From contig CAVPPH010000010.1 of assembly GCA_963707275.1 (NCBI GenBank), forward strand, positions 44,764 to 108,763: a stretch of DNA of 64,000 nt. The letters run 5' to 3'. Below are positions 8,695 through 21,124 of this stretch, in pieces. This DNA is from an uncultured Chloroflexia bacterium. Lineage in GTDB: Bacteria > Chloroflexota > Anaerolineae > JAAEKA01. The translations under genes and the position numbers were made by a program. Under the pieces are notes generated by a model. The model ran no database searches and had not been told where the DNA came from. It was given only the letters and a program-made list of their open reading frames with translations. Within the stretch, counting starts at the first letter, position 1. Each line of letters starts with the position of its first letter.

Positions 8695-8760
8695 TGTATC
8701 ACATTGTTATCGGTATTGGTATCGCAAATCGATTCCAAGAAGGGCACAAATCCGCTTCAA
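8695..8760. promoter_or_regulatory. Conserved divergent-promoter block C (ATTGTATCACATTGTTATCGGTATTGGTATCGCAAAT...GCACAAATCC...TTCAATAATGACAGG)
   Basis: ~85% identical to block 18985-19080; both lie ~200 bp upstream (divergent) of an HTH-NB-ARC-TPR regulator start. Confidence 0.55.
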
Positions 8761-8766
8761 TAATGA

Positions 8767-9008
8767 CAGGTGGCGACAGGGCCGATATTGTCGACGACGC
8801 GGTCCTCCGGGTCTACCCTGACTGGTCCCAGGTCAGGGTAGACGATCTGGAATACCTGGTGACCGATGGGACATACGTTGTCAGCGACGGCTCTGCCCTG
8901 CGCCGGGCGCACTTGTCCGTGATGTATTGGCCGGTCATGCAGCCCCGGCGGGCGGTCTGGCTGGAGGCTCGTCCCCGCAGGACGGTCGATCGCATCAGGT
9001 TGCGATGA
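8767..9008 (+). pseudogene. 5'-truncated remnant of cadherin-like small secreted protein (C-terminal half only)
   Basis: DDAVLRVYPDWSQV...YLVTDGTYVVSDGSA...SVMYWPV aligns with C-terminal halves of paralogs 9023-9415, 20157-20534; no signal peptide, no stop at paralog position. Confidence 0.4.
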
Positions 9009-9022
9009 AAGGAGAATGTGTG

Positions 9023-9415
9023 ATGAACATCCTGTTGATAGTTGTGATCCTGGTTGTCAGCCTGATCCCGCTGCCGGCCAGAGAACGGTATCATGTCCCG
9101 GTTGCCCGGGCCGATGATCGGACGCTGGTGTATCAAATGCCATACGTTGACATTGACGTCGTCAACAACGACTTCGGCCCGGGCCGGAACAGTTTGCACG
9201 TGGTCGCGGTCACGGTCGCTCAAGGCCAGGGGGTGGAGATCATTGACGGGTCAACGGTGCGGGTGTACGTCGATTGGGCCAGCTATTTGGCCGACGCCAC
9301 TGCCAACGATGCTGTGGCGGGCAGAGTAGCCCACGGAACCTACATCGTCAGCAACGGCTACGCCCAGTCGCGGGCGCAGTGGGCGGTGTGGTACGTGCCG
9401 GATATGAAGGTCTGA
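9023..9415 (+). CDS. Small secreted/membrane-anchored single cadherin-like (VCBS/Cadherin_5-like) domain protein, paralog P1
   Basis: N-terminal TM/signal, then VDIDVVNNDFGPG..VVAVTV...YVDW...GTYIVSNG...WAVWYVP; RBS AAAGGAGA 7 nt upstream of ATG 9023. Confidence 0.7.
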   Translation: MNILLIVVILVVSLIPLPARERYHVPVARADDRTLVYQMPYVDIDVVNNDFGPGRNSLHVVAVTVAQGQGVEIIDGSTVRVYVDWASYLADATANDAVAGRVAHGTYIVSNGYAQSRAQWAVWYVPDMKV

Positions 9416-9447
9416 ACCAATCGATACAGCGCGGTTCTCTTGCCACA

Positions 9448-9515
9448 TTTATATCGCTTTTGTATCGGTCAAACCCTTGCGGCGCGGCTGCTTGCGTTGT
9501 TTACTGGAGGAACAG
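9448..9515. promoter_or_regulatory. Conserved upstream block B (TTATATCGCTTTTGTATCGGTCAAAC...TTGTTTACTGGAGGAAC) upstream of SBP2
   Basis: ~80% identity to 61-125. Confidence 0.5.
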
Positions 9516-9667
9516 TGATACCTTGCAGGGTTTACCTGCCGTTGCGAGCGGCGCCGGGCGAGCTGGGTTTGGAGGGTTTTCGTGCCCACTCAGGCTGCTG
9601 AGGATTAAGAGTCCTGCTTGTGAGGTTTCGCTTGATTGACATCGTTCGTATTCCGGAGGTAGAGGAA

Positions 9668-11570
9668 ATGGATGCCATGAAACGTGTCGCACTATTCTTG
9701 TTCATAATTGGGGCTTGCCTATTGCTGGCCGCCTGCCAGGTGCCGCCGGCGGTGCAGATTGAGCAGGTTGCGCCAACTGTTGGCGTTCAGCCGGCGACCG
9801 CTCCGGTCGTCGATCAACCGGCCGCGCCGATTAGCGAGACGGCGTCGGTGAACACTGTTGGCGCTGCGTCGCCTGAGAGCGATCAGACCGTAACGCTCAA
9901 CATGAACCTGCCCTACGGCGATCCGATGAGCCTGGACCCGTCGCTGGCAGCCGATGGGGTCTCAGTTAACCTCGTCGACAACCTCTTTGTGGGGTTGACC
10001 GACATCCGCGCCGATGGCAGCGTTGCGCCGGCGCTGGCTACCGACTGGAGCGTCTCCGACGACCGGCTGACTTACACCTTCAACCTGCGCGACGACGCCA
10101 CCTGGGTGCGCTACACGGCCGCCGCCGGCGTGCAGCAGTTGGGACCGGTCACGGCTTACGACGTCGTCTACGGCGTCAAGCGCACCTGCGATCCGCGCAC
10201 GGCGGCGACGTCAGTCTATCTGGATTACGTCATCGCTGGTTGCCACAAACTGAACGCTGCCGACCCGGCAAGGCTGAGCGAACAAGAGGTTCAGGCGCTG
10301 ATAGACAACGTGGGCGTCAGCGCGCCCGACAGCACCACGGTACAGTTCACGCTGAATACGCAGGCTGTCTATTTTCCGCAGATTGCCGGACTGTGGGTCA
10401 ACCGGCCGCAAAACCGGACCGCGATCGAAGAGAATGGCAACCACTGGACGAATCCGGGCCAGATCGTGACCAACGGCCCCTACCTGTTGGCGCGCTGGTT
10501 TCATTACGATGACATGACGCTGGAGAAGAACCCGTTTTGGTATGGCTGGGACGAGGCGGCTGGCAACATCGAACGCATCGAACTGCGCATGACGACCGAT
10601 CAATCGTTGGCTTTCAAGATGTACAAGTTCGGCACATTGGACACGGACAGCGTGCCCGCGGCTGAAATCGACCACGTCAAGAGCGACCCGGTGCTGAGCC
10701 AGGAGTACGTCCATGCGCCAGAGGCGTGTACCTCCATCGTTGGCTTCACAAATTCCAAGCCGCCGCTGGACAACGTGCTGGTGCGCAAAGCACTGGCGGC
10801 TGCCATCGACCGCCAGAGCCTGATCGACAGCGTGCTCAAGGGTAACGAAATTCCTGCCAACACGTTCGCTCCGGGCATGGTTTTCGGCAGCCCGGCCGGC
10901 GACCCCGATATCGCGCCCTGGGCGCTGCCTGAAAGCATGGGCGGCTGGGGCTACGACAAGTCGCTGGCGCAGGCCAGGGAATGGCTGGCTGAGGCGGGTT
11001 ATCCCGACGGCCAGGGCTTCCCGGCGATCACTTTCATGCATTCCCAATATGTGACGTCCGATCAGGTGATGAGAGCCATCCAGTCCATGTGGGCGGACGG
11101 CCTGGGGATCGAGGTTGCGATCGAGTCCACCGAACACGAAGTGTTCTACGACACGATCGATGCCAATACGCCGTTGGACGAACGGCCAAACGCCTGGACG
11201 CTGGTCTGGTGCGCTGACTACGCCGACGAAAACAACTGGGTGTACGAGGTGTTCAACAGCGACGACGGCACGACCTGGGCGAGTTGGGACGCGACTGCCA
11301 ACGCGCCGCTGGGTCCGCAAGGCATGAACTTCAACCAGTTGACCAAGGATGCGCAGCAAGTGGAGGATCCGACGCAGCGCCTGGCGCTCTACCGCGCCGC
11401 CGAGAAGATTTCTGGTAGACGATGCCACGGCCATCGCGCCGTTGTACTACAGCGTTCGCAATGAGGTGGCCAAGCCCTACTTGCAGCGTACCTACCGCGA
11501 CATCGGCGGCGAACAGTGGTCGACCTGGGTGCTGGACTGGGCCGCCAAGCAAGCCGCGCTTGATCGCTAG
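9668..11570 (+). CDS. ABC transporter substrate-binding protein family 5 (oligopeptide SBP), lipoprotein; one frameshift near 11400
   Basis: 614-aa ORF 9620-11464 with LLLAAC lipobox and SBP_bac_5-like core; C-terminal 70 aa continue in ORF 11349-11570 (KPYLQRTYRDIGGEQWSTWVLDW), matching end of paralog 1281-3183. Confidence 0.8.
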
Positions 11571-11841
11571 GTTGTTCCATCGTGCAGTGACGTGTCATGC
11601 TGAACGGGTTGAACAGCCAACGAACGTGGATGTCCCACCGCAAGTGAAGCATCTCCATTCACGTGAGGCGCGAGACGCTTCACTGGTGGTTCAGGCAGGT
11701 GTTGGTCGTGCTTCAGACCCGTTCAGCGTGACAGCGGCAGCGGGGTTGCCCTGCAAACTTGTGAGGTCATGTGTATCGTCACAGGTTGATCCGGTAGCGA
11801 CCACACAGCTTTCGCTCTTGTAGCAACAGGAAATCGCAGTC

Positions 11842-12858
11842 ATGGAAGAGTCCTTCAGGCATCTCGTTGCAGCCGGCTATCAGGTACGACCGGCCACATA
11901 TGCTGATGTGCCACAGGTCGTTGCGCTGTTCAATGCCTCTGAGGTTGAACTCACCGGCGCCGGCGACTGCACGGTGAAGCGCTATGAGGACGCATGGCGC
12001 GAGTCAGGCATCGATCTGGAGGCCAGCACACGGCTTGTTGTGACTCGCGACGGGTGCATTGTCGGCTGCGTCGAGCTATGGGATCAGCGCAATCCACCCG
12101 CGCGGCCCTATGTGTGGGGCCGCGTGCATCCGCAGTGGCAAGGGTGCGGTATTGGCAGTGCCATGCTGTCGTGGGCGCTGTCTGCATCGCTGCGAGCGCT
12201 GGATCGACTGCCTGCCGATACCCGCCTTGCTGTTCAAGCTGAAGCGCCGGCTAACCACATGCCCAGCATCGAGCTGTTCGAAAGCACGGGAATGACCGCC
12301 TGCCGCTACTTTTGGCAGATGATCACCGACCTCGACAGGTCCATCCCAGAACCGGAATGGCCGGCGGGCTTGAAAATACGCACGCTGCGTTACCCGGAAG
12401 ATCTTGAAGCGGCTTTCATGGCTGAGGAAGATGCATTTCGCGAGCACTGGGGATACGTCGAGCAGCCTTTCGACGAGGCTTTCGAGCGCTGGAAGAAACA
12501 CCGCTTCGGTGCGGTCAAGCTGAAGCCGGATCTCTGGTTCCTGGCACTGGACGGCGAGCAGATCGTCGGCCAGATCAACTCACAGGAAAGTTACGATCTG
12601 GATGCCCGCATGGGCTGGATTGCCACTGTCAGTGTGAGCAAGGCTTACCGGCGGCGCGGTATCGGCCAGGCGCTGTTGCTGCACACCTTTCGCGAGCTGC
12701 AAGCGCGGGGCGTCCCGCGCGTCGGCTTGGGTGTGGACGCCACCAACAAGACCGGCGCCACCGGGCTGTATCAGCGCGTTGGCATGTCGGTCCAGCATGA
12801 GTACACAAACTACGAACTTGAGTTGCGGCCTGGCCGGGAGCTGGCCGTCGTGGACTGA
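11842..12858 (+). CDS. GNAT family N-acetyltransferase with two tandem GNAT domains
   Basis: Two acetyl-CoA motifs (QGCGIGSAML ; RRRGIGQALL) in 338-aa ORF. Confidence 0.7.
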   Translation: MEESFRHLVAAGYQVRPATYADVPQVVALFNASEVELTGAGDCTVKRYEDAWRESGIDLEASTRLVVTRDGCIVGCVELWDQRNPPARPYVWGRVHPQWQGCGIGSAMLSWALSASLRALDRLPADTRLAVQAEAPANHMPSIELFESTGMTACRYFWQMITDLDRSIPEPEWPAGLKIRTLRYPEDLEAAFMAEEDAFREHWGYVEQPFDEAFERWKKHRFGAVKLKPDLWFLALDGEQIVGQINSQESYDLDARMGWIATVSVSKAYRRRGIGQALLLHTFRELQARGVPRVGLGVDATNKTGATGLYQRVGMSVQHEYTNYELELRPGRELAVVD

Positions 12859-12944
12859 CGACAGGCCAGGGCTTATCATCAGTCGCCAACTTCGGCTGTG
12901 AGCACGACGATCAACGTGTTCGCCCTTCAAGAGGAGATTTCACT

Positions 12945-15266
12945 ATGAAGCGTTCAGCAGTGTTGGTATTGTTCGCCCTCGTCATCGTGGGGAGTATCGG
13001 ACTGTGGAACGGTCATCCGGTCAGCGCCGATGGCCACACGCAGGGTCTCTGGATCTTCTCCGACGAGATCAGTTCATTGTCGGCGCGTGATACGTTGGTC
13101 CAGCGCAGCGCGGCCAGCGGCGTGACCGACCTCTACCTCAGCGTCTATCATTCTCCCGCCAACAGCGACGGACGCCTGATGTACGAAGATGGTGACCTTG
13201 CCGATCTGATCGACAAGGCACATCTCAGCGGCCTGGCTGCGTGGGCGGCGTACGGCGACACCGTTTGGCCGGCCCTCGGATGTGATCCGGGCGCGTGGCC
13301 CTTGCAGCGCATGGCCGAGGTCGTCGCCTACAACACCGCCAATCCCGCTGCGCCTTTCGACGGCGTCATCCTCGATGTGGAGCCGCCGGAGCCGCAAAGT
13401 GCGGCTGATTTCCAAAACCTGCTGGCGCTCTACCAATGCACCCGCGACTTTCTGCCCGGCAACTTGAAGCTGGCGGTTGCGATCCGATTCTACTGGGATA
13501 CACCCGTGGCATATCCGGCCGGCGGACCGGTCAAGCCGGTCCACCAGCACATCGTCGATCTCGATCTCGACCAGATCGTGGTGATGGGCTACCGCGACTT
13601 CGCCGGCACGGCTAACTGCAACGATGGCGACGGTCTGATCTGCCTCGACCAGGACGAGATCGCCTATGCAGACGCGGCCCTCAAGCCTGACCTGATACTG
13701 GTTGGTCTTGAGACATCGAACTGCTCGCCCGGCTGCGGCCCTGAGAAGGTAACCTTCTTCGAGGAAGGGCAGGCGGTGCTAAGCAGCGAGGCGCAGGCTG
13801 TCGCGGACCACTTTGCCGCGGCCCCCAGCTTCGGCGGCTTCGCCATCCACCGCTACAACGCCTCCTATCTGTCTGGTCAGCCCGATTGGCCGGCCGAGAA
13901 CCCCCCGCCGCCACAGGGCGTGGTGGTCAGGCTGCTGGACAGCCAGGGCAACGGTCTGGCCGGCGGCACGGTGCAATACTACGCCGGCGGGTGGCAGGCC
14001 ATTCCGGGCACCACCGACGCCAGCGGGACCCTGGTTACCGATATTCCCGTGTCCAGCGGCAACCTGAGCTTCCGCATGACCTACGCCAACGCGTCGCAGC
14101 AACTGTCTCAGAACGTGACCGGCAACCCCACTGTCACGTTCCAGACGACCCACGTCACTGTCGAACTGCGAGACAGCTTCGGCAACCTGATCCCGGACGA
14201 GGCGGGAACCGGCACGGTGCAGTACTACGCGGGCGGCTGGCGTGACTTCGGTGTGACCGTGGGTGGGCAGACCAGCAAGGAGTTGCTGCCGCTGAGCTAC
14301 AGCTTCAGCATGAGCTACGCCTTTGGCCGCCAGCAACTGAACGGTCAGAATGTCGCTGCCAACCCGACCGTCACGTTCCAGACGACCCACGTCACCGTGG
14401 AACTGCGCGACAGCAGCGGCAATCTGATCCCCGACGGTGCGGGAACCGGCGCCGTGCAATACTACGCGGGCGGCTGGCGTGACTTCGGTGTGACCGCCGG
14501 TGGGCAGGCCAGCAGGGAACTGCTGCCGCTGACCTACAGTTTCGCCATGACCTACGCCTTCGGCCGCCAGCAGTTGAACGGCCAAGACGTCGGTGCTAAT
14601 CCCACCGTCACGTTCCAGACGAAACAGGTCACCGTGGAACTGCGCGACAGCGGCGGCAACCTGATCCCCGACGCGGCTGGAACCGGGACCGTGCAGTACT
14701 ACGCGGGCGGCTGGCGCGACTTCGGTGTGACGACCGGAGGGCAGGCCAGCAGGGAACTGCTGCCGCTGACCTACAGTTTCGCCATGACCTACGCCTTCGG
14801 CCGCCAGCAGTTGAACGGCCAGGATGTCGCCGCCAACCCGACCGTCACCTTCCAGACGACCCGCGTCACCGTGGAACTGCGCGACAGCAGCGGCAACCCG
14901 ATCTCCAACGAGGCAGGAACCGGGATGGTGCAGTACTACGCCGGCGGCTGGCGTGACTTTGGCGTAACCGCCGGTGGACAGGCAAGCAGGGAACTGCTGC
15001 CGCTGACCTACAGTTTCGCCATGACCTACGCCTTCGGCCGCCAGCAGCTGAACGGCCAGGACGTCAACGCGAACCCGACCGTCACGTTCCAGACTGGCCA
15101 CGTTCACTCAGACAGCGGGACAGCAGTCCAGTACTACGCCGGTGGCTGGCGCAGCTTCGTGCAGGACATGCAGCTTCTGCCCGCTTCGTACACGTTTCAC
15201 TTCAACGACGGGAGCCCGAACCAGGCATATCCAGTCGTGGGCGGCATGATGAACGCGATCCATTGA
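12945..15266 (+). CDS. Secreted 773-aa protein: signal peptide, putative TIM-barrel glycoside-hydrolase-like N-domain (FDGVILDVE motif), then ~5 tandem 79-aa repeats
   Basis: Signal MKRSAVLVLFALVIVGS; repeats NPTVTFQTTHVTVELRDSSGNLIPD..GTG.VQYYAGGWRDFGVTAGGQASRELLPLTYSFAMTYAFGRQQLNGQDV. Confidence 0.65.
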   Translation: MKRSAVLVLFALVIVGSIGLWNGHPVSADGHTQGLWIFSDEISSLSARDTLVQRSAASGVTDLYLSVYHSPANSDGRLMYEDGDLADLIDKAHLSGLAAWAAYGDTVWPALGCDPGAWPLQRMAEVVAYNTANPAAPFDGVILDVEPPEPQSAADFQNLLALYQCTRDFLPGNLKLAVAIRFYWDTPVAYPAGGPVKPVHQHIVDLDLDQIVVMGYRDFAGTANCNDGDGLICLDQDEIAYADAALKPDLILVGLETSNCSPGCGPEKVTFFEEGQAVLSSEAQAVADHFAAAPSFGGFAIHRYNASYLSGQPDWPAENPPPPQGVVVRLLDSQGNGLAGGTVQYYAGGWQAIPGTTDASGTLVTDIPVSSGNLSFRMTYANASQQLSQNVTGNPTVTFQTTHVTVELRDSFGNLIPDEAGTGTVQYYAGGWRDFGVTVGGQTSKELLPLSYSFSMSYAFGRQQLNGQNVAANPTVTFQTTHVTVELRDSSGNLIPDGAGTGAVQYYAGGWRDFGVTAGGQASRELLPLTYSFAMTYAFGRQQLNGQDVGANPTVTFQTKQVTVELRDSGGNLIPDAAGTGTVQYYAGGWRDFGVTTGGQASRELLPLTYSFAMTYAFGRQQLNGQDVAANPTVTFQTTRVTVELRDSSGNPISNEAGTGMVQYYAGGWRDFGVTAGGQASRELLPLTYSFAMTYAFGRQQLNGQDVNANPTVTFQTGHVHSDSGTAVQYYAGGWRSFVQDMQLLPASYTFHFNDGSPNQAYPVVGGMMNAIH
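14113..15110 (+). repeat. Near-identical 237-bp tandem DNA repeats (x ~4.3) inside CDS 12945-15266
   Basis: Period 237 bp at 14113/14359/14596/14833/15070; copies 2-4 differ by only a few nt. Confidence 0.85.
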
Positions 15267-15380
15267 CAGCAGACGCGAAACGCTTCACTGGCGGTTGGCC
15301 CAGGCCTGGTTGGGTGCTCGATCCGCTCAAGGTGACAACCATTCGGATACTTACGCCCACATGTACTAGGACCGCGTTCT

Positions 15381-16169
15381 ATGCCCGACTTTCGACATTG
15401 GCTACTGACCGCAGATTTGCACGTTGCAACGCTAACACTAAATCGGCCCGAGTCGAAGAACAGCCTGACGCCTGAGGTTTTGAGCGAGTTGCGCGCGATC
15501 ACAGCCGAGCTGGGCGCCAATGTCGAGGTCTGGGCTGTCGTCCTGCAAGGGAACGGAGACCACTTCTCAGTGGGCGTGGATACCGATCTCATTCGCAGCA
15601 TGCTCGATCAGCCGGCCCAGATCGTGCGCGAACAGCTTCGGGAGATGCAAGTAGCGCTGGATGAATTCGAAGCCATCCCCAAGCCCGTACTCGCCAGGCT
15701 GCATGGGTTTTGTATCGGCGGCGGTCTCCTGCTGGCATTGTGTTGCGATTTTCGCATCGCCAGCCAGCGTACCATCTTCGCCCTGCCCGAGGTCAAGCTG
15801 GGCATCCCAATTCTGATGGGCACGCACCGCATCACGCGGGTCACAGGAATTGCTACAGCAAAGGAACTGGTTTTGTTCGGCGAGCGTTTCAACGCCGCAA
15901 CGGCGCATAGATTGGGGCTGTTGCATCGCGTCGTGGCGCCCGATCAACTTGATTCCACCGTGATGACGCTGGCGGACCGCTTTCGCAGACTGCCACCGCG
16001 GACAATCAGTGTCACGAAACGCATCTTCACCGAAGGCTACGGCCTACCTCTGCGCGATAGTCAGGATCTGGAGCTTGAGGCGCTGGCGGAACTGCTTGAC
16101 AGCCACGATCCGCGCGAGGCAATCGAGAGCTTCTTGGTTGGACGTGACCCACATTACACGGGGACATAG
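15381..16169 (+). CDS. Enoyl-CoA hydratase/isomerase (crotonase) family protein
   Basis: LNRPESKNSL...FCIGGGLLLALCCDFRIA...ALPEVKLGI crotonase-fold motifs. Confidence 0.8.
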   Translation: MPDFRHWLLTADLHVATLTLNRPESKNSLTPEVLSELRAITAELGANVEVWAVVLQGNGDHFSVGVDTDLIRSMLDQPAQIVREQLREMQVALDEFEAIPKPVLARLHGFCIGGGLLLALCCDFRIASQRTIFALPEVKLGIPILMGTHRITRVTGIATAKELVLFGERFNAATAHRLGLLHRVVAPDQLDSTVMTLADRFRRLPPRTISVTKRIFTEGYGLPLRDSQDLELEALAELLDSHDPREAIESFLVGRDPHYTGT

Positions 16170-16179
16170 TCTGCAAGAA

Positions 16180-18789
16180 CTAACCAAGTTGCAACGCCTG
16201 CAGGATCGAGACTGCCTCCTCAACCACCTGCTCGAATGGGTGTCGCTGACCTTGCGCCCACGCAGCGTCGAAACTCGCTGTGTTGAGGTGAACTCTTGCA
16301 GTCTCGAAGAGTCGATTGAAGTCGGTACGATAGATCGGCCACATGCGATAGTTCTCGTTGTCTGCGGCATCGGTTGCGCCAAGTAGCACGACAGCCAACT
16401 CGTGCTGGCCAAACGCCAGCGCCAGACCGGCCAGGCCAAGGCTCCAGGAACTCCATTCATCTCGGTCGACTGGGATTCCTGGCAGACTGGCGCGGTACCA
16501 GTGGATGGCGCTAGCGTAGTCGCCTTCTTCCTGGACCAACGTTGCCAGGTACAGGTAACAGCCGCACAGGTTGGGATCCTGGTCGTTGTCGTATCTCTTT
16601 ACGAGTTGTAGCCACTGGTTCATGAATATGTGGGCAGTATCGAAATCCTTCTGACGAATCGCCGTGAGAGAAAGGCCGATAAGGGTTTCCTGGCTAATGT
16701 CGTTTTTCCCGGTTTGACGCTCTACTTTCATACTTTGCTCAAAGCGCGATCTCGCAAGTGCCAAATCGCCATTCGCGTAAGCTATCTCGCCCAGCCTGTT
16801 CAAAGGTAACGAAAACCCCAGACCTTCCCGTTGAGAGATGGCAAGGCTTTCCTCGCCTAACTCTTGAGCTCGAAGGAAGTCACCTCTCAACAGAGAGACT
16901 TTTGTGAGATACATGAGGGCCATTGACATGCCCCCAGGGGAGCGAAGTTCTGTGTAACAGTCGAGCGCCTTTTCCAGGTACTGGATGGCAGCGGCCGAGT
17001 CTTGCAACCACCACAATGACATTCGTCCCAGGAGGATCAATGCGTCGGCTTCCCCTTTGAGATAACCCAGCTTCGTGCTGATGGTCAGGCTCTCCTCGAC
17101 CATTGTCTTTGCACGAGTGGTCTCTCCGCTGTACAACAGAACAATGCCAGCTTCATACAGGACCCTTGCTCGCGGAATGGTTGGATTTGAGGCCCCGGGA
17201 AGTGCAAGTACCTCGTCGATCAAACGGATTGCTTCCACGTAGGGACCTCTCTGATAAAACCAGAACGCCAGATACGCAGTCAACAGTAAGGATATCTGTT
17301 CGTCGTGCTGCACGGACCAGGCAAGAGCAGAGCGCAAATTGTAGAGTTCATCATCGATCAAACGGTTTTGTAGCGTTCGTCTGGGGTTGCCATCCGCTGC
17401 ATTGCCATTCTCCATGATCGTCAGGAAGCAGCCAGCATGCCGCGCCCGCATGATCTCCATTTCGCCGCTGGCAGCTAATCTGTCGAGGCCGAACTCGCGC
17501 ACCGTCTCAAGCATGGCGTAGCGCGTTTCACCGTATAGCCCGGTCTCACGCTGCACGAGGTTCCTTTCCAGAAGCACTGCGACGCCGTCCAGGACGGCTG
17601 CCGCCTGCTCTTCAGCGTTGCCATCTTCCCAGCACACCATCTCAGCCGCCTGCAGTGTGAAGCCGCCTGCGAATACCGACAGACGCCGGAACAGCGTCTG
17701 CTCGGCTGGCGGGAGCAGGTCGTAGCTCCAGCCGATGGCGCCGCGCAGGGTCTTCTGGCGGGCGGACACATCGCGCAGGCCGTCGGTGGAGAGCAGCCAC
17801 GGGCCGTGCAGGCGTGCCAACAATTCGTTGGGTGGAAGGACCTTGACCCGCGCCGCGACCAGTTCGATGGCCAGCGGCAGGCCGTCCAGCCGGCGGCACA
17901 GTTCGGCCACAGCGGCAGCGTTGCCGTCGTCGACAGCGAAGTCGGGCAGCACCGCTTCGGCGCGTTCGGCAAAGAGTTCTACCGACGGATAGCGCAGCAT
18001 GTCGGCGGCTTTGACCGCGCTCGCTCCGGTCATCTCGGCCGGCAACGCTAACGGCAGCACGTGGATCTGGCGCTCGCCGCGCACCCGCAGCGGCTGGCGG
18101 CTGGTGACCAGGACGTGCAGCCATGGACAGCGGCGCAGCAAGTCGTCCACCAGCGGCGCGGCGGCCACGATCTGCTCGAAGTTATCCAGCACCAGGAGCA
18201 GGTGTTTCTCCTCAAGATACGCGCGCAGTTGTAGCTCCGGTGGGTTGGGACCGCTCATTTGCAAGCCCAGCGCCTGGGCGATGGCCGCCGCCACCTGATG
18301 GGGGTCGATGACCGGCGCCAGGCGGACGAAGAAGGCGCCGTCGTCGAACTGTTCCAGCACGTCCTCGGCCACGGCCAGGGAGAGCCGCGTCTTGCCGACG
18401 CCGGGCGGACCAACCAGCGTAACCAGCCGAGCGCCGTCGTCGACCAGCCGTTTACGCACAGCGGTGATGTCGCGCTCGCGGCCGATGAGTGGTGTGAGCT
18501 GGGCGGGGAGGTTGTTAGGATGCTGGGGACGCAGCAGGCGCGCCTTGACCGTGAAGTCGTCTTCGAGACCGCGCGCCAGGGAAACCAGGCCCGGCAGGTC
18601 GGCGTCGTCCACGCCGAGAGCTGTGGCAAGAGACGCAACCAGCGGCGCGGACGGCTGCAGGTTGCCGGCCTCGATCTTGCGCAGCGTCACCTCGGCGCAG
18701 CCCGCCTGCTGTGCCAACACCTTCTGTGTCAGCCCAAGCGCCTTGCGCCGTTGCTTGAGCCACTGACCGAAGTTACCTGTCTGTTGCAT
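16180..18789 (-). CDS. STAND-type regulator copy 3, intact: HTH_XRE N-domain + NB-ARC ATPase + C-terminal TPR
   Basis: 869-aa uninterrupted ORF; GHWLKQRRKALGLTQ HTH; Walker A GPPGVGKT; hhhhD Walker B LLVLDNFEQ; multiple TPR-like repeats. Confidence 0.85.
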   Translation of the reverse strand: MQQTGNFGQWLKQRRKALGLTQKVLAQQAGCAEVTLRKIEAGNLQPSAPLVASLATALGVDDADLPGLVSLARGLEDDFTVKARLLRPQHPNNLPAQLTPLIGRERDITAVRKRLVDDGARLVTLVGPPGVGKTRLSLAVAEDVLEQFDDGAFFVRLAPVIDPHQVAAAIAQALGLQMSGPNPPELQLRAYLEEKHLLLVLDNFEQIVAAAPLVDDLLRRCPWLHVLVTSRQPLRVRGERQIHVLPLALPAEMTGASAVKAADMLRYPSVELFAERAEAVLPDFAVDDGNAAAVAELCRRLDGLPLAIELVAARVKVLPPNELLARLHGPWLLSTDGLRDVSARQKTLRGAIGWSYDLLPPAEQTLFRRLSVFAGGFTLQAAEMVCWEDGNAEEQAAAVLDGVAVLLERNLVQRETGLYGETRYAMLETVREFGLDRLAASGEMEIMRARHAGCFLTIMENGNAADGNPRRTLQNRLIDDELYNLRSALAWSVQHDEQISLLLTAYLAFWFYQRGPYVEAIRLIDEVLALPGASNPTIPRARVLYEAGIVLLYSGETTRAKTMVEESLTISTKLGYLKGEADALILLGRMSLWWLQDSAAAIQYLEKALDCYTELRSPGGMSMALMYLTKVSLLRGDFLRAQELGEESLAISQREGLGFSLPLNRLGEIAYANGDLALARSRFEQSMKVERQTGKNDISQETLIGLSLTAIRQKDFDTAHIFMNQWLQLVKRYDNDQDPNLCGCYLYLATLVQEEGDYASAIHWYRASLPGIPVDRDEWSSWSLGLAGLALAFGQHELAVVLLGATDAADNENYRMWPIYRTDFNRLFETARVHLNTASFDAAWAQGQRHPFEQVVEEAVSILQALQLG

Positions 18790-18984
18790 TTTCTCAAGCT
18801 ACAGCCTTCTCAGCATCAGTTTGCCAGAAAAGTGTGACGGGTTTCACACTTTTTTTGTGAACTACTTCATAGCGAGAATTGCACAATCCTGTTATGATAC
18901 AACCATATCCCAAAAGCCGCTTCAAGTTTCGGGGTTAACCCGTTATCCGCCTGGTTGAGTAGGGACTGCGAGTCGCCGCAAGGG

Positions 18985-19080
18985 TCGCGCATATTGTATC
19001 ACATTGCTATCGGTTTTGGTATCGCAATTTGGTTCTTAACTGCGCACAAATCCTGTTTAATAACAGGTGTTCGGACAAAG
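18985..19080. promoter_or_regulatory. Conserved divergent-promoter block D (ATTGTATCACATTGCTATCGGTTTTGGTATCGCAATT...GCACAAATCC...TTTAATAACAGG)
   Basis: Homologous to 8695-8760; sits between regulator 3 start (18789) and secreted gene 19132. Confidence 0.55.
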
Positions 19081-19131
19081 TGCTGGGGCTCCCAAAGGCC
19101 ACCCATTTGTGATCATTTTGAGGAGGATACC

Positions 19132-19521
19132 ATGAACAAGTTTCTGTCGGTCGTGTTGGCTGCCATGTTGTTGGCCGTCGCGTTCCTGCCGGCGTCGGCC
19201 GCCCCGCCGGAGCCTGTCGATTATCGGATCACGCGAGCCGGTTCGTGTTGGCTGCCTGACGGATCAACCAGGCCGCTCTTGGTCGAGAGCGTGAAGCAGA
19301 ACTTCCACTGGGCAACGCCGATCCGGTTGGTCGCCTTTTGCGCAGGCTACGCGCCAAAAGGCGCCGAGTTGCCAAAGGAGACCTTGGTGCTAGACTACGG
19401 TTCCACCGGACGCCTGTGTAGGATCACTCTCGGTCGGGGCACTTACGTTACAGAGGACTACACTGCAACCGTCTCGCCCAACGGTAGCACCGCCATCACG
19501 TGCATAGTCGATATCGACTGA
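19132..19521 (+). CDS. Small secreted Cys-containing hypothetical protein (AAPPEP family)
   Basis: RBS GAGGAGGA; signal MNKFLSVVLAAMLLAVAFLPASAAPPEP; 4 Cys; N-terminus similar to ORF at 199. Confidence 0.6.
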   Translation: MNKFLSVVLAAMLLAVAFLPASAAPPEPVDYRITRAGSCWLPDGSTRPLLVESVKQNFHWATPIRLVAFCAGYAPKGAELPKETLVLDYGSTGRLCRITLGRGTYVTEDYTATVSPNGSTAITCIVDID

Positions 19522-19742
19522 GGAGCGTAGACGACTCTCTGCGAAAACCGGCGAGCATTCGCTACTTCTGCCGAGACGACGCGTTTCGAATCACCGCTGC
19601 TGACTTGCTGCTTCTCTCGTCCTTGCCGTTTTCCCTAGCAGGGGGCAGGGGGACCGGCGAGGCGCTGAGAGCAGGAAAAACGAGACGAGGAGCCGCCCAA
19701 AGCGGGCGGCTCCTCCCACAAACTACCTGGAGGAACCGTATC

Positions 19743-20123
19743 ATGTCTAACTTGCTTCTGATCTTGATGATGATGGTCACGCTGGTTGCACCCCTTGCCG
19801 GGCCGCGCAATCGGCCGCCGATTGCCAACGACGACATAGTCGTCCTGTTGTATCACCCTGTTCCAGTCGTCGACATTTTTGTCCTGGAAAACGATGTCGA
19901 TCCGGACATGGATCCCCTCTACGTCACAGCGCTGTCGGTCATCGACGGCGGCAAGGCCGAGATTGTCAAAGGCAAGGTCGTCCAGGTGTACATCGACTGG
20001 CCGCAAGACGGCTTTGGAGATCCGCAAGGCCTGATGGCTTACGGGTCATACATCGTCACCGACGGCGCTGCGCAAAGCAAGGCCAACTGGAGCGTCTGGT
20101 ACTGGCCGGAGATTCAGCCTTAG
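19743..20123 (+). CDS. Small secreted single cadherin-like domain protein, paralog P2
   Basis: RBS GGAGGA; signal; PPIANDD...VLENDVDPDMDPLYVTA...YIDW...YGSYIVTDGA...WSVWYWP. Confidence 0.7.
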   Translation: MSNLLLILMMMVTLVAPLAGPRNRPPIANDDIVVLLYHPVPVVDIFVLENDVDPDMDPLYVTALSVIDGGKAEIVKGKVVQVYIDWPQDGFGDPQGLMAYGSYIVTDGAAQSKANWSVWYWPEIQP

Positions 20124-20156
20124 CGGCTGAGAGTCTGGCTCACGGAGGAACGTGCG

Positions 20157-20534
20157 ATGATCACCTTTCTGCTCGCGATACCATTGGTGCTGATGTCTAT
20201 GCTGTCAAGCGGCGTGCCGCACAATCACCCACCCGTGGCGGTCGCAGACCAGTACTTCCTGCTGTTCTACCCGTTGCCGGTTGTCGACATACCGGTGCTG
20301 GAGAACGACACTGATCCCGACGGGGACGTTCTGCACGTGACTGCGTTGCTCGCGACCGAGGGCGGAACGGCCCAGATACTTGATGACGGGAGCGTGCGGG
20401 TAGTCCTTGACTGGTCTCGCGAGGTTTACGAACCGGAAGGTCTGGTTGCGTACGGCACCTACGTCGTCAGCGACGGCGCGGCAGGCAGCACGGCTGTCTG
20501 GTCGGTCTGGTATTGGCCGGTCATGCTGCCATAA
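20157..20534 (+). CDS. Small secreted single cadherin-like domain protein, paralog P3
   Basis: PPVAVADQ...VLENDTDPDGDVLHVTA...VLDW...YGTYVVSDGA...WSVWYWP. Confidence 0.7.
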   Translation: MITFLLAIPLVLMSMLSSGVPHNHPPVAVADQYFLLFYPLPVVDIPVLENDTDPDGDVLHVTALLATEGGTAQILDDGSVRVVLDWSREVYEPEGLVAYGTYVVSDGAAGSTAVWSVWYWPVMLP

Positions 20535-20566
20535 ACCATTGAAGTCGCCTGAAGGAGGAAGTAGCG

Positions 20567-20953
20567 ATGTCTACTATTCTGTCCGTACTCTTGCTGGCGT
20601 GGACCTGCATCTTGTCCGTGCCTGGGCCGCGCAACCTGCCGCCGGTGGCGGTGAACGACGAGGTCATGGTCACCGGCTACACCGACTATCTTGAGATACC
20701 GGTATTCGCCAACGACTACGACCCCGAAGGCCGGCCGATTGACGTGGTTGCCCTGGGAATGGTGGATCGCGGCAAGGCCGAGCTGTTGGAGGGCGATGCG
20801 GTCGGCGTCTACCCCGACTATCCGACGGAGGTCGACTCGACGGGATCCAAGCCAGTGCTCATCGCCCACGGCGCGTACATCATCAGCGACGGTCAACTGA
20901 CGAGCACCGGGCACTGGATCGTCTGGTATCAACCGGCATCGTCTGCTCCGTGA
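20567..20953 (+). CDS. Small secreted single cadherin-like domain protein, paralog P4
   Basis: PPVAVNDE...VFANDYDPEGRPIDVVA...YPDY...HGAYIISDGQ...WIVWYQP. Confidence 0.7.
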   Translation: MSTILSVLLLAWTCILSVPGPRNLPPVAVNDEVMVTGYTDYLEIPVFANDYDPEGRPIDVVALGMVDRGKAELLEGDAVGVYPDYPTEVDSTGSKPVLIAHGAYIISDGQLTSTGHWIVWYQPASSAP

Positions 20954-20980: not shown

Positions 20981-21031
20981 GGCGCAGAGACACGAAGAGA
21001 AAGCACCTCTTTGCGTCTCTGCGCTTTTCGT
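20981..21031 (+). terminator. Intrinsic terminator-like hairpin after cadherin-like gene array
   Basis: GCGCAGAGAC-23 nt loop-GTCTCTGCGC followed by TTTTCGTT. Confidence 0.55.
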
Positions 21032-21124
21032 TGACCTTCTTTTGCGCCATTTGCGTGACTGATGTAGAATCCCCGCAGTCTTGATCATCCCCGTCGCTCC
21101 GGCCATTCTGGCCGGGAGGCTGCT

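What the first reader, a model, noticed from the sequence alone, without database searches (positions are those of the whole stretch)
8767..20953. Family of single-domain membrane-anchored cadherin-like mini-proteins in tandem
Four ~125-130-aa paralogs plus one 5'-truncated remnant each have an N-terminal signal/TM segment followed by one domain with the hallmark PP(V/I)A(V/N)DD ... V(L/F)ENDxDPDGD ... V.DW ... YGTY(V/I)VSDG ... W.VWY.P. This is the bacterial cadherin-like/VCBS signature, which normally occurs as many repeats in giant adhesins. Stand-alone single-domain versions arrayed next to STAND regulators are unusual. Paralogs are only ~40-50% identical, i.e. a diversifying family.
Basis: partly seen in the sequence, partly recalled or inferred. 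Interest (0 to 1): 0.6.

Follow-up and report, generated by a model that had tools for sequence, protein, structure and literature searches.

The report
Small single-domain cadherin-like surface proteins
A filamentous Chloroflexota bacterium carries four intact genes and one broken one for very small exported proteins, each made of a single copy of the calcium-binding "cadherin-like" domain usually found as dozens of repeats in giant bacterial adhesins; they sit beside a sensor-type regulator gene, and they are a real but fairly ordinary lineage-specific family.

Summary
There are four intact paralogs: 9023-9415, 19743-20123, 20157-20534 and 20567-20953. They are 125-130 aa and 32-51% identical. 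A 5'-deleted pseudogene lies at about 8745-8945.

Each protein has a hydrophobic N-terminal segment followed by one Big_9/Cadherin_4 domain. Pfam supports this, with scores above threshold for three of the four. An AlphaFold model (pLDDT 85) gives a beta-sandwich closest to RTX-adhesin extender domains and protocadherin EC domains.

They are separate cistrons, not fragments of one large gene. Each has its own Shine-Dalgarno site, start and stop, and same-length orthologs occur in independent assemblies.

Two claims fail or weaken:
- "Diversifying" is not supported. Each paralog has orthologs under purifying selection (dN/dS 0.15-0.40). What varies is array content, from 0 to 3 genes per module, with recombinant chimeras.
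- "Unusual" holds only in part. This family, about 60 clusters, was found only in a few Caldilineales/Anaerolineae genomes. Small proteins built only of Big_9 domains are already known, for example the Rhizobium lectin RapA2.

The genes lie in two duplicated modules. Each is transcribed divergently from an HTH-NB-ARC-TPR STAND gene across a conserved control region with a palindrome and TATC direct repeats.

Most likely they are Sec-exported, membrane-tethered Ca2+-dependent binding modules under STAND control. Modest interest.

The parts
19743..20123 (+). p3: mini-protein, 126 aa. N-terminal hydrophobic segment plus one Big_9 domain with a full acidic loop ENDVDPDMD.
   Evidence: ORF. Pfam Big_9 30.3 bits against a gathering threshold of 23.6. 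GGAGGA lies 8 nt before the ATG. The L004 ortholog is 73% identical, dN/dS 0.21.
20157..20534 (+). p4: mini-protein, 125 aa. Best match to Big_9/Cadherin_4, with the acidic loop ENDTDPDGD.
   Evidence: Pfam Big_9 E 1.9e-10 and Cadherin_4 E 2.1e-9. AF2 pLDDT 84.8. Foldseek hits FrhA and protocadherins. Orthologs are 82-83% identical, dN/dS 0.15-0.20.
20567..20953 (+). p5: mini-protein, 128 aa. Divergent subtype with GYTDYLEIPVFANDYDPEG.
   Evidence: Pfam Big_9 25.5 bits. Orthologs are 69-76% identical. Its own GGAGGA site is present.
9023..9415 (+). p2: mini-protein, 130 aa, in module A. The acidic loop is degenerate (NNDFGPGRN) and SNG replaces SDG.
   Evidence: ORF. It scores below the Pfam threshold on its own (14.8 bits) but is a clear paralog, E 1e-24 to p3. 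Orthologs are 73% (L004) and 63% (L007) identical, dN/dS 0.27-0.30.
8745..8945 (+). Pseudogene remnant of a fifth subtype (A1-type). About 290 nt are deleted at the 5' end and the stop codon is lost.
   Evidence: tblastn. Alignment to the intact orthologs L004 2358-2735 and L001 1275-1655.
19132..19521 (+). p6: unrelated 129-aa secreted protein and first gene of the module B operon. It has a classical Sec signal peptide (MNKFLS...LPASA|AP) and 4 invariant cysteines.
   Evidence: ORF. No Pfam, PHROG or PADLOC hit. It belongs to a narrow family. It precedes the minis in L001, L003, L004 and L008, and a 129-aa gene in the same position in L089 was not checked. The AF2 model is low-confidence, pLDDT 63, all-beta.
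16180..18789 (-). STAND-B: intact 869-aa HTH_XRE-NB-ARC-TPR protein, transcribed divergently from p6-p3-p4-p5.
   Evidence: Pfam HTH_31, HTH_3, NB-ARC, AAA_22, TPR_12 and TPR_MalT. The NOD region is weakly similar to AfsR. No full-length PADLOC defence-STAND model matches.
6021..8504 (-). STAND-A: paralog of STAND-B, divergent from the remnant and p2. It is broken by frameshifts.
   Evidence: tblastn pieces fall in 3 frames. DNA is 79% identical to STAND-B and its leader over 7179-8772. Pfam hits on the N-terminal 422 aa.
3245..5826 (-). STAND-C: third paralog, directly downstream of STAND-A, with several frameshifts.
   Evidence: tblastn pieces fall in 3 frames and are 60-93% identical to STAND-B.
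18790..19131 (.). Control region of module B. It contains a perfect palindrome AAAAGTGTGA-N6-TCACACTTTT (18828-18853), the blocks TTCATAGCG and TGTTATGAT (18866-18898), and a triple direct repeat TATCAC-N5-TATCGG-N6-TATCGC (18997-25).
   Evidence: These blocks are invariant across 8 module A/B leaders from 4 genomes. Sequence read directly. Motif searches.
8505..8765 (.). Control region of module A. It has the same blocks: palindrome-like GTGTGACCGAATTCAC at 8536-8552 and the TATC triple repeat at 8697-8725. It is truncated by the deletion that made the remnant.
9452..9468 (+). Variant TATC double repeat TATCGCTTTTGTATCGG, downstream of p2 and upstream of the SBP gene. A further copy lies at 65-81, upstream of a secreted-protein gene.
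   Evidence: The window holds 4 matches against 0.08 expected by chance, all on the + strand and all intergenic. The same variant occurs in L004, L007, L086, L087 and L089.
19687..19715 (+). 12-bp GC-rich hairpin in the 220-nt spacer between p6 and p3. It has no U-run on the + strand.
   Evidence: Folding gives -32.2 kcal/mol, z -6.6. The scan lists it as terminator-like on the - strand only.
20981..21033 (+). Intrinsic terminator-like hairpin plus U-run that ends the p6-p5 operon.
   Evidence: Folding gives -32 kcal/mol, z -5.2, followed by CUUUUCGUU.
21567..22253 (+). CRP/FNR-family regulator (cNMP-binding domain plus HTH_Crp_2) and candidate binder of the TGTGA-N6-TCACA palindrome. Whether it belongs to the system is uncertain.
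   Evidence: Pfam and NCBIfam hits. It is syntenic with module B in L002 and L084, and in fragmented form in L003. The link to the palindrome is inference only.

Best explanation
Each gene encodes a minimal surface protein with three parts: a hydrophobic N-terminal export or anchor segment of about 18 aa, a Pro-rich linker (P-G-P-R-N-x-P-P), and one bacterial cadherin-like Ig domain (Pfam Big_9/Cadherin_4).

Shown:
- the domain family and the beta-sandwich fold;
- that the genes are independent cistrons;
- purifying selection on each paralog;
- the operon layout p6-p3-p4-p5, ending in a terminator;
- divergent pairing with an HTH-NB-ARC-TPR STAND gene across a conserved control region, in nearly all genomes that carry the family;
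- duplication of the whole module.

Inferred:
1. The proteins are exported by Sec. Most stay tethered to the outer face of the cytoplasmic membrane through an uncleaved signal-anchor.
2. The conserved acidic positions bind Ca2+. These are D31, N50, D51, D53, D85 and D106, and include the ENDxDPDGD loop. p2-type members have lost the loop and the SDG motif.
3. The domain binds a cell-envelope or matrix ligand in a Ca2+-dependent way. The most likely ligand is a sheath or exopolysaccharide glycan, as for the Big_9-only Rhizobium lectins RapA2 and RapD. Another surface protein is the alternative. The paralog subtypes would have different specificities.
4. The STAND protein works like MalT, GutR or AfsR. 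A ligand sensed by its TPR arm permits ATP-dependent oligomerisation, and the N-terminal XRE-type HTH domains then bind the TATC direct repeats to switch on the divergent operon. The TGTGA-N6-TCACA palindrome is a second input. It could be the CRP-family regulator encoded just downstream, or STAND autoregulation.
5. Array content changes through unequal recombination and deletion between neighbouring paralogs.
For: Domain and fold:
- Pfam Big_9 and Cadherin_4 hits.
- The profile search hits repeat units of giant adhesins.
- AF2 model with pLDDT 84.8: helix 3-16 followed by 7 strands.
- Foldseek matches FrhA at E 8.7e-4, plus MpAFP and protocadherin EC domains.

Export:
- The hydrophobic N-terminus is present in all 57 members examined.
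- Two family members, P0213 and P0216, carry classical K-containing Sec signal peptides with AxA cleavage sites in front of the same PRNLPPVA junction.
- The operon partner p6 has a canonical signal peptide and 4 invariant cysteines.

Anchor rather than cleavage:
- 54 of 57 members lack K/R in the n-region.
- By eye, the junction after the hydrophobic core is Pro-rich and lacks a conserved AxA site.

Ca2+ ligands: the acidic positions are invariant or nearly so.

Functional genes: dN/dS is 0.15-0.40.

Lectin analogy: RapA2 belongs to the same Pfam families, with Big_9 at E 6.9e-17 in two copies. It is an experimentally shown Ca2+-dependent EPS/CPS lectin (PMC9298526).

Operon: separate Shine-Dalgarno sites, 32-33-nt spacers and a terminator.

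STAND link:
- The arrangement recurs in the window (twice), L001 (twice), L002, L003, L004 (twice), L084, L086, L087 and L089.
- The module duplicated as a unit. DNA is 79% identical across the STAND gene and leader.
- Control-region blocks are invariant across 8 leaders.
- The TATC repeats occur 4 times in the window against 0.08 expected.
- The TATC motif is present in every STAND-bearing locus examined. It is absent from the two loci that have a mini gene but no HTH-STAND, L006 and L008.

Recombination: P0005 is the p3 N-terminus (24/29) joined to the p4 body (82/96). P0201 is the p4 N-terminus (24/29) joined to the p5 body (76/99). Copy number runs from 0 to 3 per module.
Against: There are no experimental data on these proteins or their relatives.

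- Localisation rests on sequence features only. SignalP and DeepTMHMM were not available. The n-region is uncharged and many members have an Arg just after the hydrophobic core, which leaves the topology formally ambiguous.
- Ca2+ binding is inferred from motifs that, in tandem-repeat proteins, form sites between neighbouring domains. A lone domain may bind differently.
- Direct comparison with RapA2 is weak: hhalign probability 2.5%, aligning only the PxAxDD...ND motif region. The lectin analogy therefore rests on shared Pfam family, not on close homology.
- All STAND-linked loci come from one narrow clade, so shared ancestry could explain much of the adjacency. L006, L008 and L007 carry a mini gene without a divergent HTH-STAND next to it.
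- The sigma-70 consensus scan found no promoter in the control region.
- Two of the three STAND copies in the window are frameshifted.
Confidence: 0.5

Rival explanations
1. The small ORFs are pieces of one large multi-repeat adhesin gene, broken up by frameshift or assembly errors.
For: The window does contain frameshifted genes: STAND-A, STAND-C and two SBP genes. The domain normally occurs in giant tandem-repeat proteins.
Against: Each ORF has its own GGAGG site, ATG and stop codon, and a hydrophobic N-terminal segment that an internal repeat would not have. The 32-33-nt spacers contain stops in the coding frame. About 60 clusters of 120-135 aa with the same layout come from independent short- and long-read assemblies. 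dN/dS below 0.4 applies to the whole ORF, N-terminus included.
Confidence: 0.02
2. The adjacency to STAND genes is inherited synteny without regulatory meaning. The minis are constitutive surface proteins, and the STAND proteins regulate something else or are decaying.
For: All loci come from one Caldilineales/Anaerolineae clade. Two of three STAND copies in the window, and several in L001-L003, are fragmented. L006 and L008 keep a mini gene without an HTH-STAND. L084 module B keeps STAND and p6 but has no minis.
Against: The regulator, leader and first genes duplicated and persisted together as a unit. Leader blocks are invariant although the adjacent mini genes are only 32-43% identical between the two modules. 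TATC repeats co-occur with HTH-STAND and are absent where it is absent. Divergent regulator-target pairing is the classical arrangement for GutR-type STAND activators (my own knowledge, plus PMC10936776).
Confidence: 0.2
3. The minis act as protein-protein adhesion or recognition modules, for example homophilic cadherin-style contacts between neighbouring cells of the filament, or as partners of p6. They are not glycan-binding lectins.
For: The structures most similar to the model include protocadherin EC domains and a peptide-binding adhesin region. The organism's relatives are MAGs labelled Caldilineales/Anaerolineae, a group I know to be filamentous, although the organism itself was not identified. 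p6 co-occurs with a mini even in L008, which has no STAND. Several distinct conserved subtypes per genome would fit a combinatorial code.
Against: A single 100-aa domain on a short linker reaches only a few nanometres from the membrane, probably not beyond the cell wall (inference). Characterised bacterial proteins built only of this domain are lectins (PMC9298526).
Confidence: 0.2
4. The hydrophobic segment is a reverse signal-anchor (N-out, C-in). The domain would then face the cytoplasm and act as a membrane-tethered ligand or adaptor for the TPR arm of the STAND protein.
For: 54 of 57 members have no K/R before the hydrophobic core, and 49 of 57 have 1-2 K/R in the 12 residues after it. 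By the positive-inside rule this favours a cytoplasmic C-terminus.
Against: P0213 and P0216 have classical cleavable Sec signal peptides in front of the same domain. L006 and A1-type members have no Arg and a net negative charge after the core. The conserved acidic Ca2+ loop is typical of extracytoplasmic domains. The operon partner p6 is clearly secreted.
Confidence: 0.05

Closest known systems
Big_9 / Cadherin_4 ('tandem-95', CHDL) extender repeats of giant bacterial RTX-type adhesins, such as V. cholerae FrhA and Marinomonas MpIBP/MpAFP
   Same: Same Pfam domain families. Same PPxAxDD...NDxDxDGD...SDG motif set. Same beta-sandwich fold, with Foldseek best hits 9ybq (FrhA) and 5k8g (MpAFP). 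The family profile retrieves these repeats in 16,884 proteins.
   Different: One domain instead of 7-55. Total length is about 125 aa instead of 900-6800. The N-terminus is a Sec-type hydrophobic segment, with no T1SS signal or RTX repeats. There is a family-specific aromatic C-terminus, W-x-V-W-Y-x-P. With no neighbouring domain, the usual inter-domain Ca2+ rigidification cannot apply.
Rhizobium leguminosarum Rap proteins (RapA1/RapA2, RapD): small secreted Ca2+-dependent lectins made of Ra/CHDL domains
   Same: They are small proteins consisting only, or mainly, of this domain. RapA2 (236 aa) hits Pfam Big_9 at E 6.9e-17 and Cadherin_4 at E 1.2e-15. Several paralogs occur per genome. Ca2+-dependent folding and binding to the cell's own EPS/CPS have been shown experimentally (PMC9298526). 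This is the best functional analogy.
   Different: Rap proteins have two domains (RapA) or one domain plus an unrelated C-terminal region (RapD). They are secreted by the PrsDE type I system, have no N-terminal hydrophobic segment, and are dispersed in the genome rather than arrayed next to a STAND gene. Direct sequence similarity to the minis is marginal: hhalign probability 2.5%, and there was no tblastn hit to Rhizobium plasmids.
Eukaryotic classical cadherin and protocadherin EC domains
   Same: Greek-key beta-sandwich with acidic Ca2+-binding loops. Protocadherin EC1-4 structures are among the top Foldseek hits, with probability 0.9-1.0.
   Different: There is no Pfam Cadherin (PF00028) hit. 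Sequence identity is 13-19%, and TM-scores are 0.31-0.44 for the protocadherin and cadherin hits when normalised to the whole query. The resemblance is at fold level only.
STAND-class transcription regulators MalT, GutR and AfsR (applies to the neighbouring regulator)
   Same: A DNA-binding effector domain, an NB-ARC/NOD ATPase and a TPR sensor arm. The NOD is weakly similar to AfsR, E 4.8e-15. It is transcribed divergently from the presumed target operon. Direct repeats in the leader resemble activator sites.
   Different: The effector is an N-terminal XRE-type HTH (HTH_3/HTH_31), not a LuxR-type HTH (MalT) or SARP domain (AfsR). No curated NCBIfam model is reached. The inducer and the DNA site are unknown.

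Membership tests
Pfam Big_9 (PF17963, bacterial Ig domain) | HMM score at or above the gathering threshold of 23.6 bits | tested here: met
   p4 41.9, p3 30.3 and p5 25.5 bits are above threshold. p2 at 14.8 bits is below it, but p2 is an unambiguous paralog, E 1e-24 to p3.
Pfam Cadherin_4 (PF17803) and Cadherin_5 (PF17892), bacterial cadherin-like domains | HMM score at or above the gathering threshold (25.1 and 26.5 bits) | tested here: inconclusive
   Cadherin_4: p4 38.2 (met), p3 25.0 (just below), p5 23.0, p2 14.3. Cadherin_5: best score 23.7, below 26.5. These overlapping models describe the same domain.
Tandem-95 repeat / VCBS-type giant adhesin (NCBIfam NF012211) | Many head-to-tail copies of the ~95-aa repeat in one polypeptide; model cutoff 90 bits | tested here: not met
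   Best score is 20.7 bits, for p4. Each protein has exactly one domain. Pfam VCBS was not hit.
Cadherin-like / Ig-like beta-sandwich fold | Seven-strand Greek-key sandwich superposable on adhesin extender or cadherin EC domains | tested here: met
Ca2+-binding cadherin-like domain | Conserved acidic ligand motifs (xDD at the N-terminus, NDxDxDGD loop, D in the DW motif, SDG) and actual Ca2+ binding | not testable with these tools
   The motifs are present and near-invariant in p3/p4-type members, partial in p5 (NDYDPEGR), and lost in p2-type members (NDFGPGRN, SNG). Binding itself needs experiment.
Eukaryotic cadherin repeat (Pfam PF00028) | Sequence match to the Cadherin HMM | tested here: not met
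   No hit at E <= 1.
Rap (Ra/CHDL) lectin family of Rhizobium | Ra/CHDL domain(s), T1SS (PrsDE) secretion, and Ca2+-dependent EPS/CPS binding | tested here: inconclusive
   The Pfam domain family is shared. Direct profile-sequence similarity is insignificant, at hhalign probability 2.5%. The N-terminal hydrophobic segment points to Sec rather than T1SS. Carbohydrate binding is untested. The minis may work like Rap proteins, but they are not filed as members.
Sec-exported protein with a signal peptide or signal anchor | n-h-c signal peptide, or an uncleaved hydrophobic anchor, giving extracytoplasmic location | not testable with these tools
   A hydrophobic core is present in all 57 members. 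Only 3 have K/R in the n-region, and of these P0213 and P0216 have canonical AxA sites. SignalP, DeepTMHMM or experiment are needed.
STAND NTPase transcription regulator (neighbouring gene) | NB-ARC/NACHT-type P-loop NOD, a repeat sensor arm and a DNA-binding effector | tested here: met
   HTH_31 at E 1e-13, NB-ARC at E 3.9e-9 (36.6 bits against a threshold of 23.5) and TPR_12 at E 2.4e-23. A Walker A motif, GPPGVGKT, is visible in the translation.
Known anti-phage STAND systems (Avs, bNACHT and others in PADLOC) | Full-length match to a PADLOC defence-protein model | tested here: not met
   Only generic HTH and TPR fragments matched, with a best score of 31.9 bits over 55 aa. The minis and p6 gave no hit.

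The most novel reading that the evidence does not exclude
The STAND-controlled cassettes would form an inducible, recombining repertoire of membrane-tethered single cadherin-like domains, together with p6. On a signal sensed by the STAND TPR arm, this repertoire would re-coat or re-code the cell surface of a filamentous Chloroflexota bacterium. The purpose could be a cell-cell identity or cohesion code within filaments, or surface masking against phage or predators. That would make them a bacterial counterpart of combinatorial cadherin and protocadherin recognition, built from minimal one-domain units.
Probability: 0.08. Interest if true: 0.7.

Novelty: new variant of a known kind. Interest (0 to 1): 0.3.

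Why it matters
The family shows that the repeat unit of giant Ca2+-dependent adhesins can also exist as a free-standing protein of about 100 aa on a membrane tether. Here it has expanded into four or five conserved subtypes, and it is wired to a ligand-sensing STAND regulator.

If the lectin or adhesion reading is right, these are compact and tractable probes of envelope or sheath chemistry in activated-sludge filamentous Chloroflexota, which cause bulking and are largely uncultured.

The conserved leader, with its palindrome and TATC repeats, offers a directly testable operator for a large and poorly understood class of HTH-NB-ARC-TPR regulators.

The finding does not change current concepts. 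Both the domain and the type of regulator are known, and NCBI already labels members 'Ig-like domain-containing protein'.

Tried and rejected
1. Split-adhesin or assembly artefact. Rejected on gene anatomy and on orthologs in independent assemblies.
2. Positive or diversifying selection. NG86 dN/dS on 12 ortholog pairs gave 0.15-0.40. Rejected at whole-gene level; site-level tests were not possible with so few sequences.
3. Defence-system membership. PADLOC gave only generic HTH and TPR hits. The only PHROGs hit was marginal, E 0.0087 for p2.
4. An RNA element in the conserved leader. Rfam gave no hit at gathering threshold anywhere in the window. The conservation has no codon periodicity and reads as DNA operator blocks.
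5. The profile search of 1.84 billion representatives confirmed the domain family, but the top 150 were all giants. It could not show how common short single-domain relatives are.
6. Sequence search of the PDB with the family profile gave no hit at E <= 0.01.
8. The p6 structure came out at pLDDT 63, too poor for a fold search. None was run.
9. The sigma-70 scan found no consensus promoter in the control region. My hand-read candidates, TGTTATGAT at 18890-18898 and TTCTTA-17-TTTAAT at 19033-19061, are weak and unverified.
10. Direct homology to RapA2 is not significant. Only the Pfam family is shared.
11. The N-out/C-in topology suggested by the Arg after the hydrophobic core was down-weighted after finding family members with canonical signal peptides and members without that Arg.

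Full report
**1. What is there**

The + strand between 8.7 and 21 kb carries four intact ORFs of 125-130 aa:
- p2, 9023-9415
- p3, 19743-20123
- p4, 20157-20534
- p5, 20567-20953

A C-terminal remnant at about 8745-8945 lies in the frame of ORF 8583-9008. BLASTP identities among the four are 32-51%, with E-values from 1e-16 to 3e-39. The remnant matches their C-terminal halves at 31-55%. tblastn finds no other copy in the 64 kb.

In an alignment of the four paralogs with 11 database homologs, these positions are invariant: P26, A28, D31, I45, V47, N50, D51, P54, D85, A98, G100, Y102, G107, W115, V117, W118, Y119 and P121.

The geometry needs correcting. Only p3-p4-p5 are tandem. p2 and the remnant sit in a second module about 10 kb away. 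An unrelated 129-aa secreted-protein gene, p6 (19132-19521), leads the p3-p5 array.

**2. Domain and fold**

Pfam assigns Big_9 (PF17963) above its gathering threshold of 23.6 bits to p4 (41.9 bits, E 1.9e-10), p3 (30.3) and p5 (25.5). Cadherin_4 (PF17803) is above threshold for p4. Cadherin_5 is sub-threshold. Pfam VCBS and eukaryotic Cadherin are not hit. NCBIfam 'tandem-95 repeat' reaches only 20.7 of 90 bits, as expected for a single repeat.

A family profile searched against 1.84 billion representative proteins hits 16,884 proteins. The 150 best are all 878-6787 aa with 7-55 matched stretches. The domain is therefore the repeat unit of giant adhesins.

AlphaFold2 on the 15-sequence alignment gives pLDDT 84.8. 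The model has an N-terminal helix (residues 3-16), a lower-confidence linker, and a seven-strand sandwich with pLDDT 82-97 in the 10-residue blocks covering residues 21-120. The best Foldseek matches in the PDB are:
- the V. cholerae FrhA adhesin region, 9ybq, at E 8.7e-4
- cadherin-like domains of GH107 fucoidanases
- Ig-like phage collar proteins
- many protocadherin EC domains
- MpAFP

A sequence search of the PDB with the family profile finds nothing.

**3. Not fragments of one gene**

p3, p4 and p5 each have a GGAGGA site 7-8 nt upstream of the ATG, their own stop codon, and 32-33-nt spacers. p2 has an AGGAG site. Each begins with a hydrophobic segment that an internal repeat would not have.

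A hairpin of -32 kcal/mol followed by a U-run lies after p5 (z -5.2) and ends the unit.

The protein database holds about 60 clusters at 90% identity. All are 120-135 aa with the same layout, and they come from NCBI, ENA, JGI and Logan assemblies. NCBI names them 'Ig-like domain-containing protein' or 'hypothetical protein'.

**4. Export signal**

In 57 family members the best 15-aa N-terminal window has a median Kyte-Doolittle score of 2.5. Only 3 members have K/R in residues 2-6, and 49 have 1-2 K/R just after the core. By eye, the junction is Pro-rich (P-G-P-R-N-x-P-P) and has no conserved AxA site. This looks more like an uncleaved anchor than a standard signal peptide, and taken alone it would even allow an N-out/C-in topology.

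Three observations argue for an extracytoplasmic domain:
- P0213 (MNKLAIVTLLVLMFSMSAAAVNA|G) and P0216 (MTKFMSVLLAALMLTFVVLPASA|NE) carry canonical Sec signal peptides in front of the same PRNLPPVA junction.
- The L006 and A1-type members have no Arg and a net negative flank after the core.
- The operon partner p6 has a textbook signal peptide and four invariant cysteines.

I therefore take the domain to be outside the cell, tethered or released. This remains an inference, because no signal-peptide predictor was available.

**5. Evolution: conserved subtypes, dynamic arrays**

The family has at least five subtypes:
- A1-type, represented in the window only by the remnant
- p2-type, in which the acidic loop has degenerated to NDxGPGP and SDG has become SNG
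- p3-type
- p4-type
- p5-type

Each window paralog has its own orthologs in related contigs. Examples are p4 at 82-83% in L002 and L003, and p3, p5 and p2 at 73% in L004.

Nei-Gojobori dN/dS for ortholog pairs is 0.15-0.40, compared with 0.05 for the neighbouring CRP-family gene and 0.15 for a ferredoxin. dS between paralogs is saturated at 1.3-2.4. The paralogs are therefore old and individually maintained. 'Diversifying' in the sense of positive selection is not supported.

What does vary is gene content:
- The window has one intact gene plus the remnant in module A, and 3 in module B.
- L004 has 3 + 3.
- The Caldilineales MAG ABC2.10 has 1 + 2, plus 1 elsewhere.
- L084 has 2 + 0.
- L006 has a single gene.

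Recombinant genes also exist. P0005 joins the p3 N-terminus (24/29 identical) to the p4 body (82/96). P0201 joins the p4 N-terminus (24/29) to the p5 body (76/99). These are what unequal crossing-over between neighbouring genes at the conserved PRNxPPVA junction would produce.

The window's remnant is another such accident. About 290 nt are missing, covering the end of the leader and roughly codons 1-68, and its stop codon has mutated from TAG to CGG.

**6. Distribution**

A pattern scan of one genome for each of 185,579 species returned 80 loci. Stand-alone small versions occur only in a handful of Caldilineales/Anaerolineae MAGs (L001/5/7, L004, L006, L008). All other matches, in Leifsonia, Herbiconiux, Bipolaricaulota and others, lie in ORFs of 300 aa or more, and most in ORFs of 1000 aa or more.

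This particular family is therefore clade-restricted. The scan was tuned to this family, so it does not show that single-domain Big_9 proteins in general are rare.

**7. Genomic context and likely control**

STAND-B (16180-18789, minus strand, 869 aa) contains HTH_31/HTH_3, NB-ARC/AAA and TPR_12/TPR_MalT domains. Its NOD region is weakly AfsR-like. It matches no PADLOC defence model beyond generic HTH and TPR pieces.

Two more paralogs are interrupted by frameshifts: STAND-A at about 6021-8504 and STAND-C at about 3245-5826. Two SBP genes are also frameshifted, so assembly errors cannot be excluded.

Module A (STAND-A, leader, remnant, p2) and module B (STAND-B, leader, p6, p3-p5) are duplicates. 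DNA is 79% identical over 1.6 kb of STAND gene plus leader. The remnant aligns to the 3' half of p4 at 66%.

The same divergent layout recurs in L001 (twice), L002, L003, L004 (twice), L084, L086, L087 and L089.

An alignment of eight leaders from four genomes shows invariant blocks:
- a palindrome, perfect in module B: AAAAGTGTGA-CGGGTT-TCACACTTTT at 18828-18853, which is the CRP-type TGTGA-N6-TCACA
- TTCATAGCG
- TGnTATGAT
- a triple direct repeat, TATCAC-N5-TATCGG-N6-TATCGC, at 18997-19025 and again at 8697-8725

The double-repeat pattern TATCGS-N4-6-TATCGS occurs four times in the window against 0.08 expected. All four are on the + strand, intergenic and upstream of genes for exported proteins, at 65, 8708, 9452 and 19008. 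The motif is present in every HTH-STAND-bearing locus examined. It is absent from the two loci that have a mini gene but no HTH-STAND, L006 and L008.

By analogy with MalT, GutR and AfsR, the simplest model has the STAND protein binding the TATC repeats through its XRE-type HTH domains and activating the divergent operon when its TPR arm senses a ligand. Those STAND regulators are released from autoinhibition by inducer and ATP (PMC10936776).

The palindrome could be bound by the CRP-family regulator encoded just downstream (21567-22253). From memory, its recognition helix contains an R-E pair like that of E. coli CRP. Alternatively, the palindrome serves STAND autoregulation.

All of this is inference. 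The consensus sigma-70 scan found no promoter in the leader. A strong hairpin at 19687-19715 (-32 kcal/mol, z -6.6) lies between p6 and p3 and may set their relative expression.

**8. What the proteins probably do**

The near-invariant acidic positions are D31, N50, D51, D53, D85 and D106. In tandem cadherin-like repeats these positions are Ca2+ ligands, which is established knowledge of the family but was not tested here.

The closest characterised proteins built only of this domain are the Rhizobium Rap lectins. RapA2 (236 aa) hits Big_9 at E 6.9e-17, in two copies, and Cadherin_4 at E 1.2e-15. It is a Ca2+-dependent lectin for the cell's own EPS/CPS. RapD, with one Ra/CHDL domain, also binds EPS (PMC9298526).

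Direct similarity of the minis to RapA2 is not significant: hhalign probability is 2.5%, and tblastn gave no hit to Rhizobium plasmids. The analogy is one of architecture and Pfam family, not of orthology.

My preferred reading, at confidence about 0.5, is that the minis are Ca2+-dependent binding modules held at the outer face of the membrane. Subtype-specific ligands would lie in the envelope, sheath or EPS. A protein-protein adhesion role, or a partnership with p6, is the main alternative.

**9. Verdict**

It is a stand-alone, single-domain, Sec-type variant of a domain best known from giant adhesins. It is organised in duplicated cassettes associated with STAND regulators and sharing conserved operator-like repeats, and it is confined to a small Chloroflexota clade.

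It is not hypervariable, and it is not without precedent, given the Rap lectins.

Novelty: new variant of a known kind. Interest: about 0.3.

Noticed in passing
window 19132-19521 (p6); also L001 9497-9886, L003 8357-8746 and 9085-9381, L004 6994-7380, L008 7463-7834, L084 10001-10444: A narrow family of ~129-aa secreted proteins with no Pfam, PHROG or PADLOC hit. It has a classical signal peptide and four invariant cysteines. It is always the first gene after the STAND leader, and it stays next to a mini gene even in L008, which has no STAND. The AF2 model is poor (pLDDT 63, all-beta).
   Followed up: partly
window 18828-18853 and 18997-19025; 8536-8552 and 8697-8725; 9452-9468; 65-81: Conserved operator-like DNA: a CRP-type palindrome (AAAAGTGTGA-N6-TCACACTTTT) and TATC direct repeats. 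The window has 4 double repeats against 0.08 expected, all on the + strand and upstream of exported-protein genes. The TATC repeats are conserved in 8 other loci and absent from the two loci that lack an HTH-STAND. They may define a small regulon of the STAND paralogs.
   Followed up: partly
window 3245-5826 (-), 6021-8504 (-), 1281-3069 (+), 9620-11570 (+), 199-950 (+): Two of the three STAND paralogs, both SBP_bac_5 genes and a small secreted-protein gene are interrupted by frameshifts, while STAND-B, the 773-aa protein, the GNAT and the ECH genes are intact. These are either real pseudogenes in paralog-rich DNA or polishing errors. Related loci L001-L003 show similar fragmentation.
   Followed up: no
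window 12945-15266 (repeats 14119-15094): A 773-aa secreted protein with 4.1 tandem copies of a 237-nt (79-aa) unit at 87% identity, and weak Invasin_D3/Big_1 hits. It lies between the GNAT and ECH genes, which are adjacent in the related MAG locus L001, so it appears to be an insertion or lineage-specific gain.
   Followed up: no
window 58853-59107: A 92-nt tandem repeat, 2.8 copies at 92% identity. Each unit contains short inverted repeats such as CGGCATCC...GATGCCG and TTCGCATC...GATGCGAA. Nature unknown.
   Followed up: no
database proteins P0005, P0201, P0178, P0181, P0220 (metagenomic relatives): Natural chimeras between neighbouring mini-gene subtypes: p3 N-terminus with p4 body, and p4 N-terminus with p5 body. 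By eye, P0178 and P0181 appear to be A1-type N-terminal halves joined to p2-type C-terminal halves. P0220 is an 81-aa internal-deletion form. These indicate unequal recombination within the arrays.
   Followed up: partly
window 20157-20534 vs L002 3449-3826, compared with window 21567-22253 vs L002 5336-6022: Synonymous divergence of p4 from its L002 ortholog (dS 0.63) is about 2.5 times that of the CRP-family gene 1 kb away on the same pair of contigs (dS 0.25). Possible causes are weaker codon constraint, gene conversion among paralogs, or exchange between strains.
   Followed up: no
L006 1779-5711 and 5964-10421: In an uncultured Anaerolineae MAG the single mini gene lies between two large beta-helix proteins that carry a CSLREA-like motif and C-terminal anchors. 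It is downstream of a 1310-aa BTAD-ATPase-TPR-SBP_bac_5 fusion, which is a different kind of STAND regulator. This reading comes from the ORF translations only.
   Followed up: no
window 19687-19715: A 12-bp GC-rich hairpin (-32 kcal/mol, z -6.6) in the 220-nt spacer between p6 and p3. It has a T-run only on the minus strand. It could be an mRNA processing or stability element, or a terminator for antisense transcription.
   Followed up: partly
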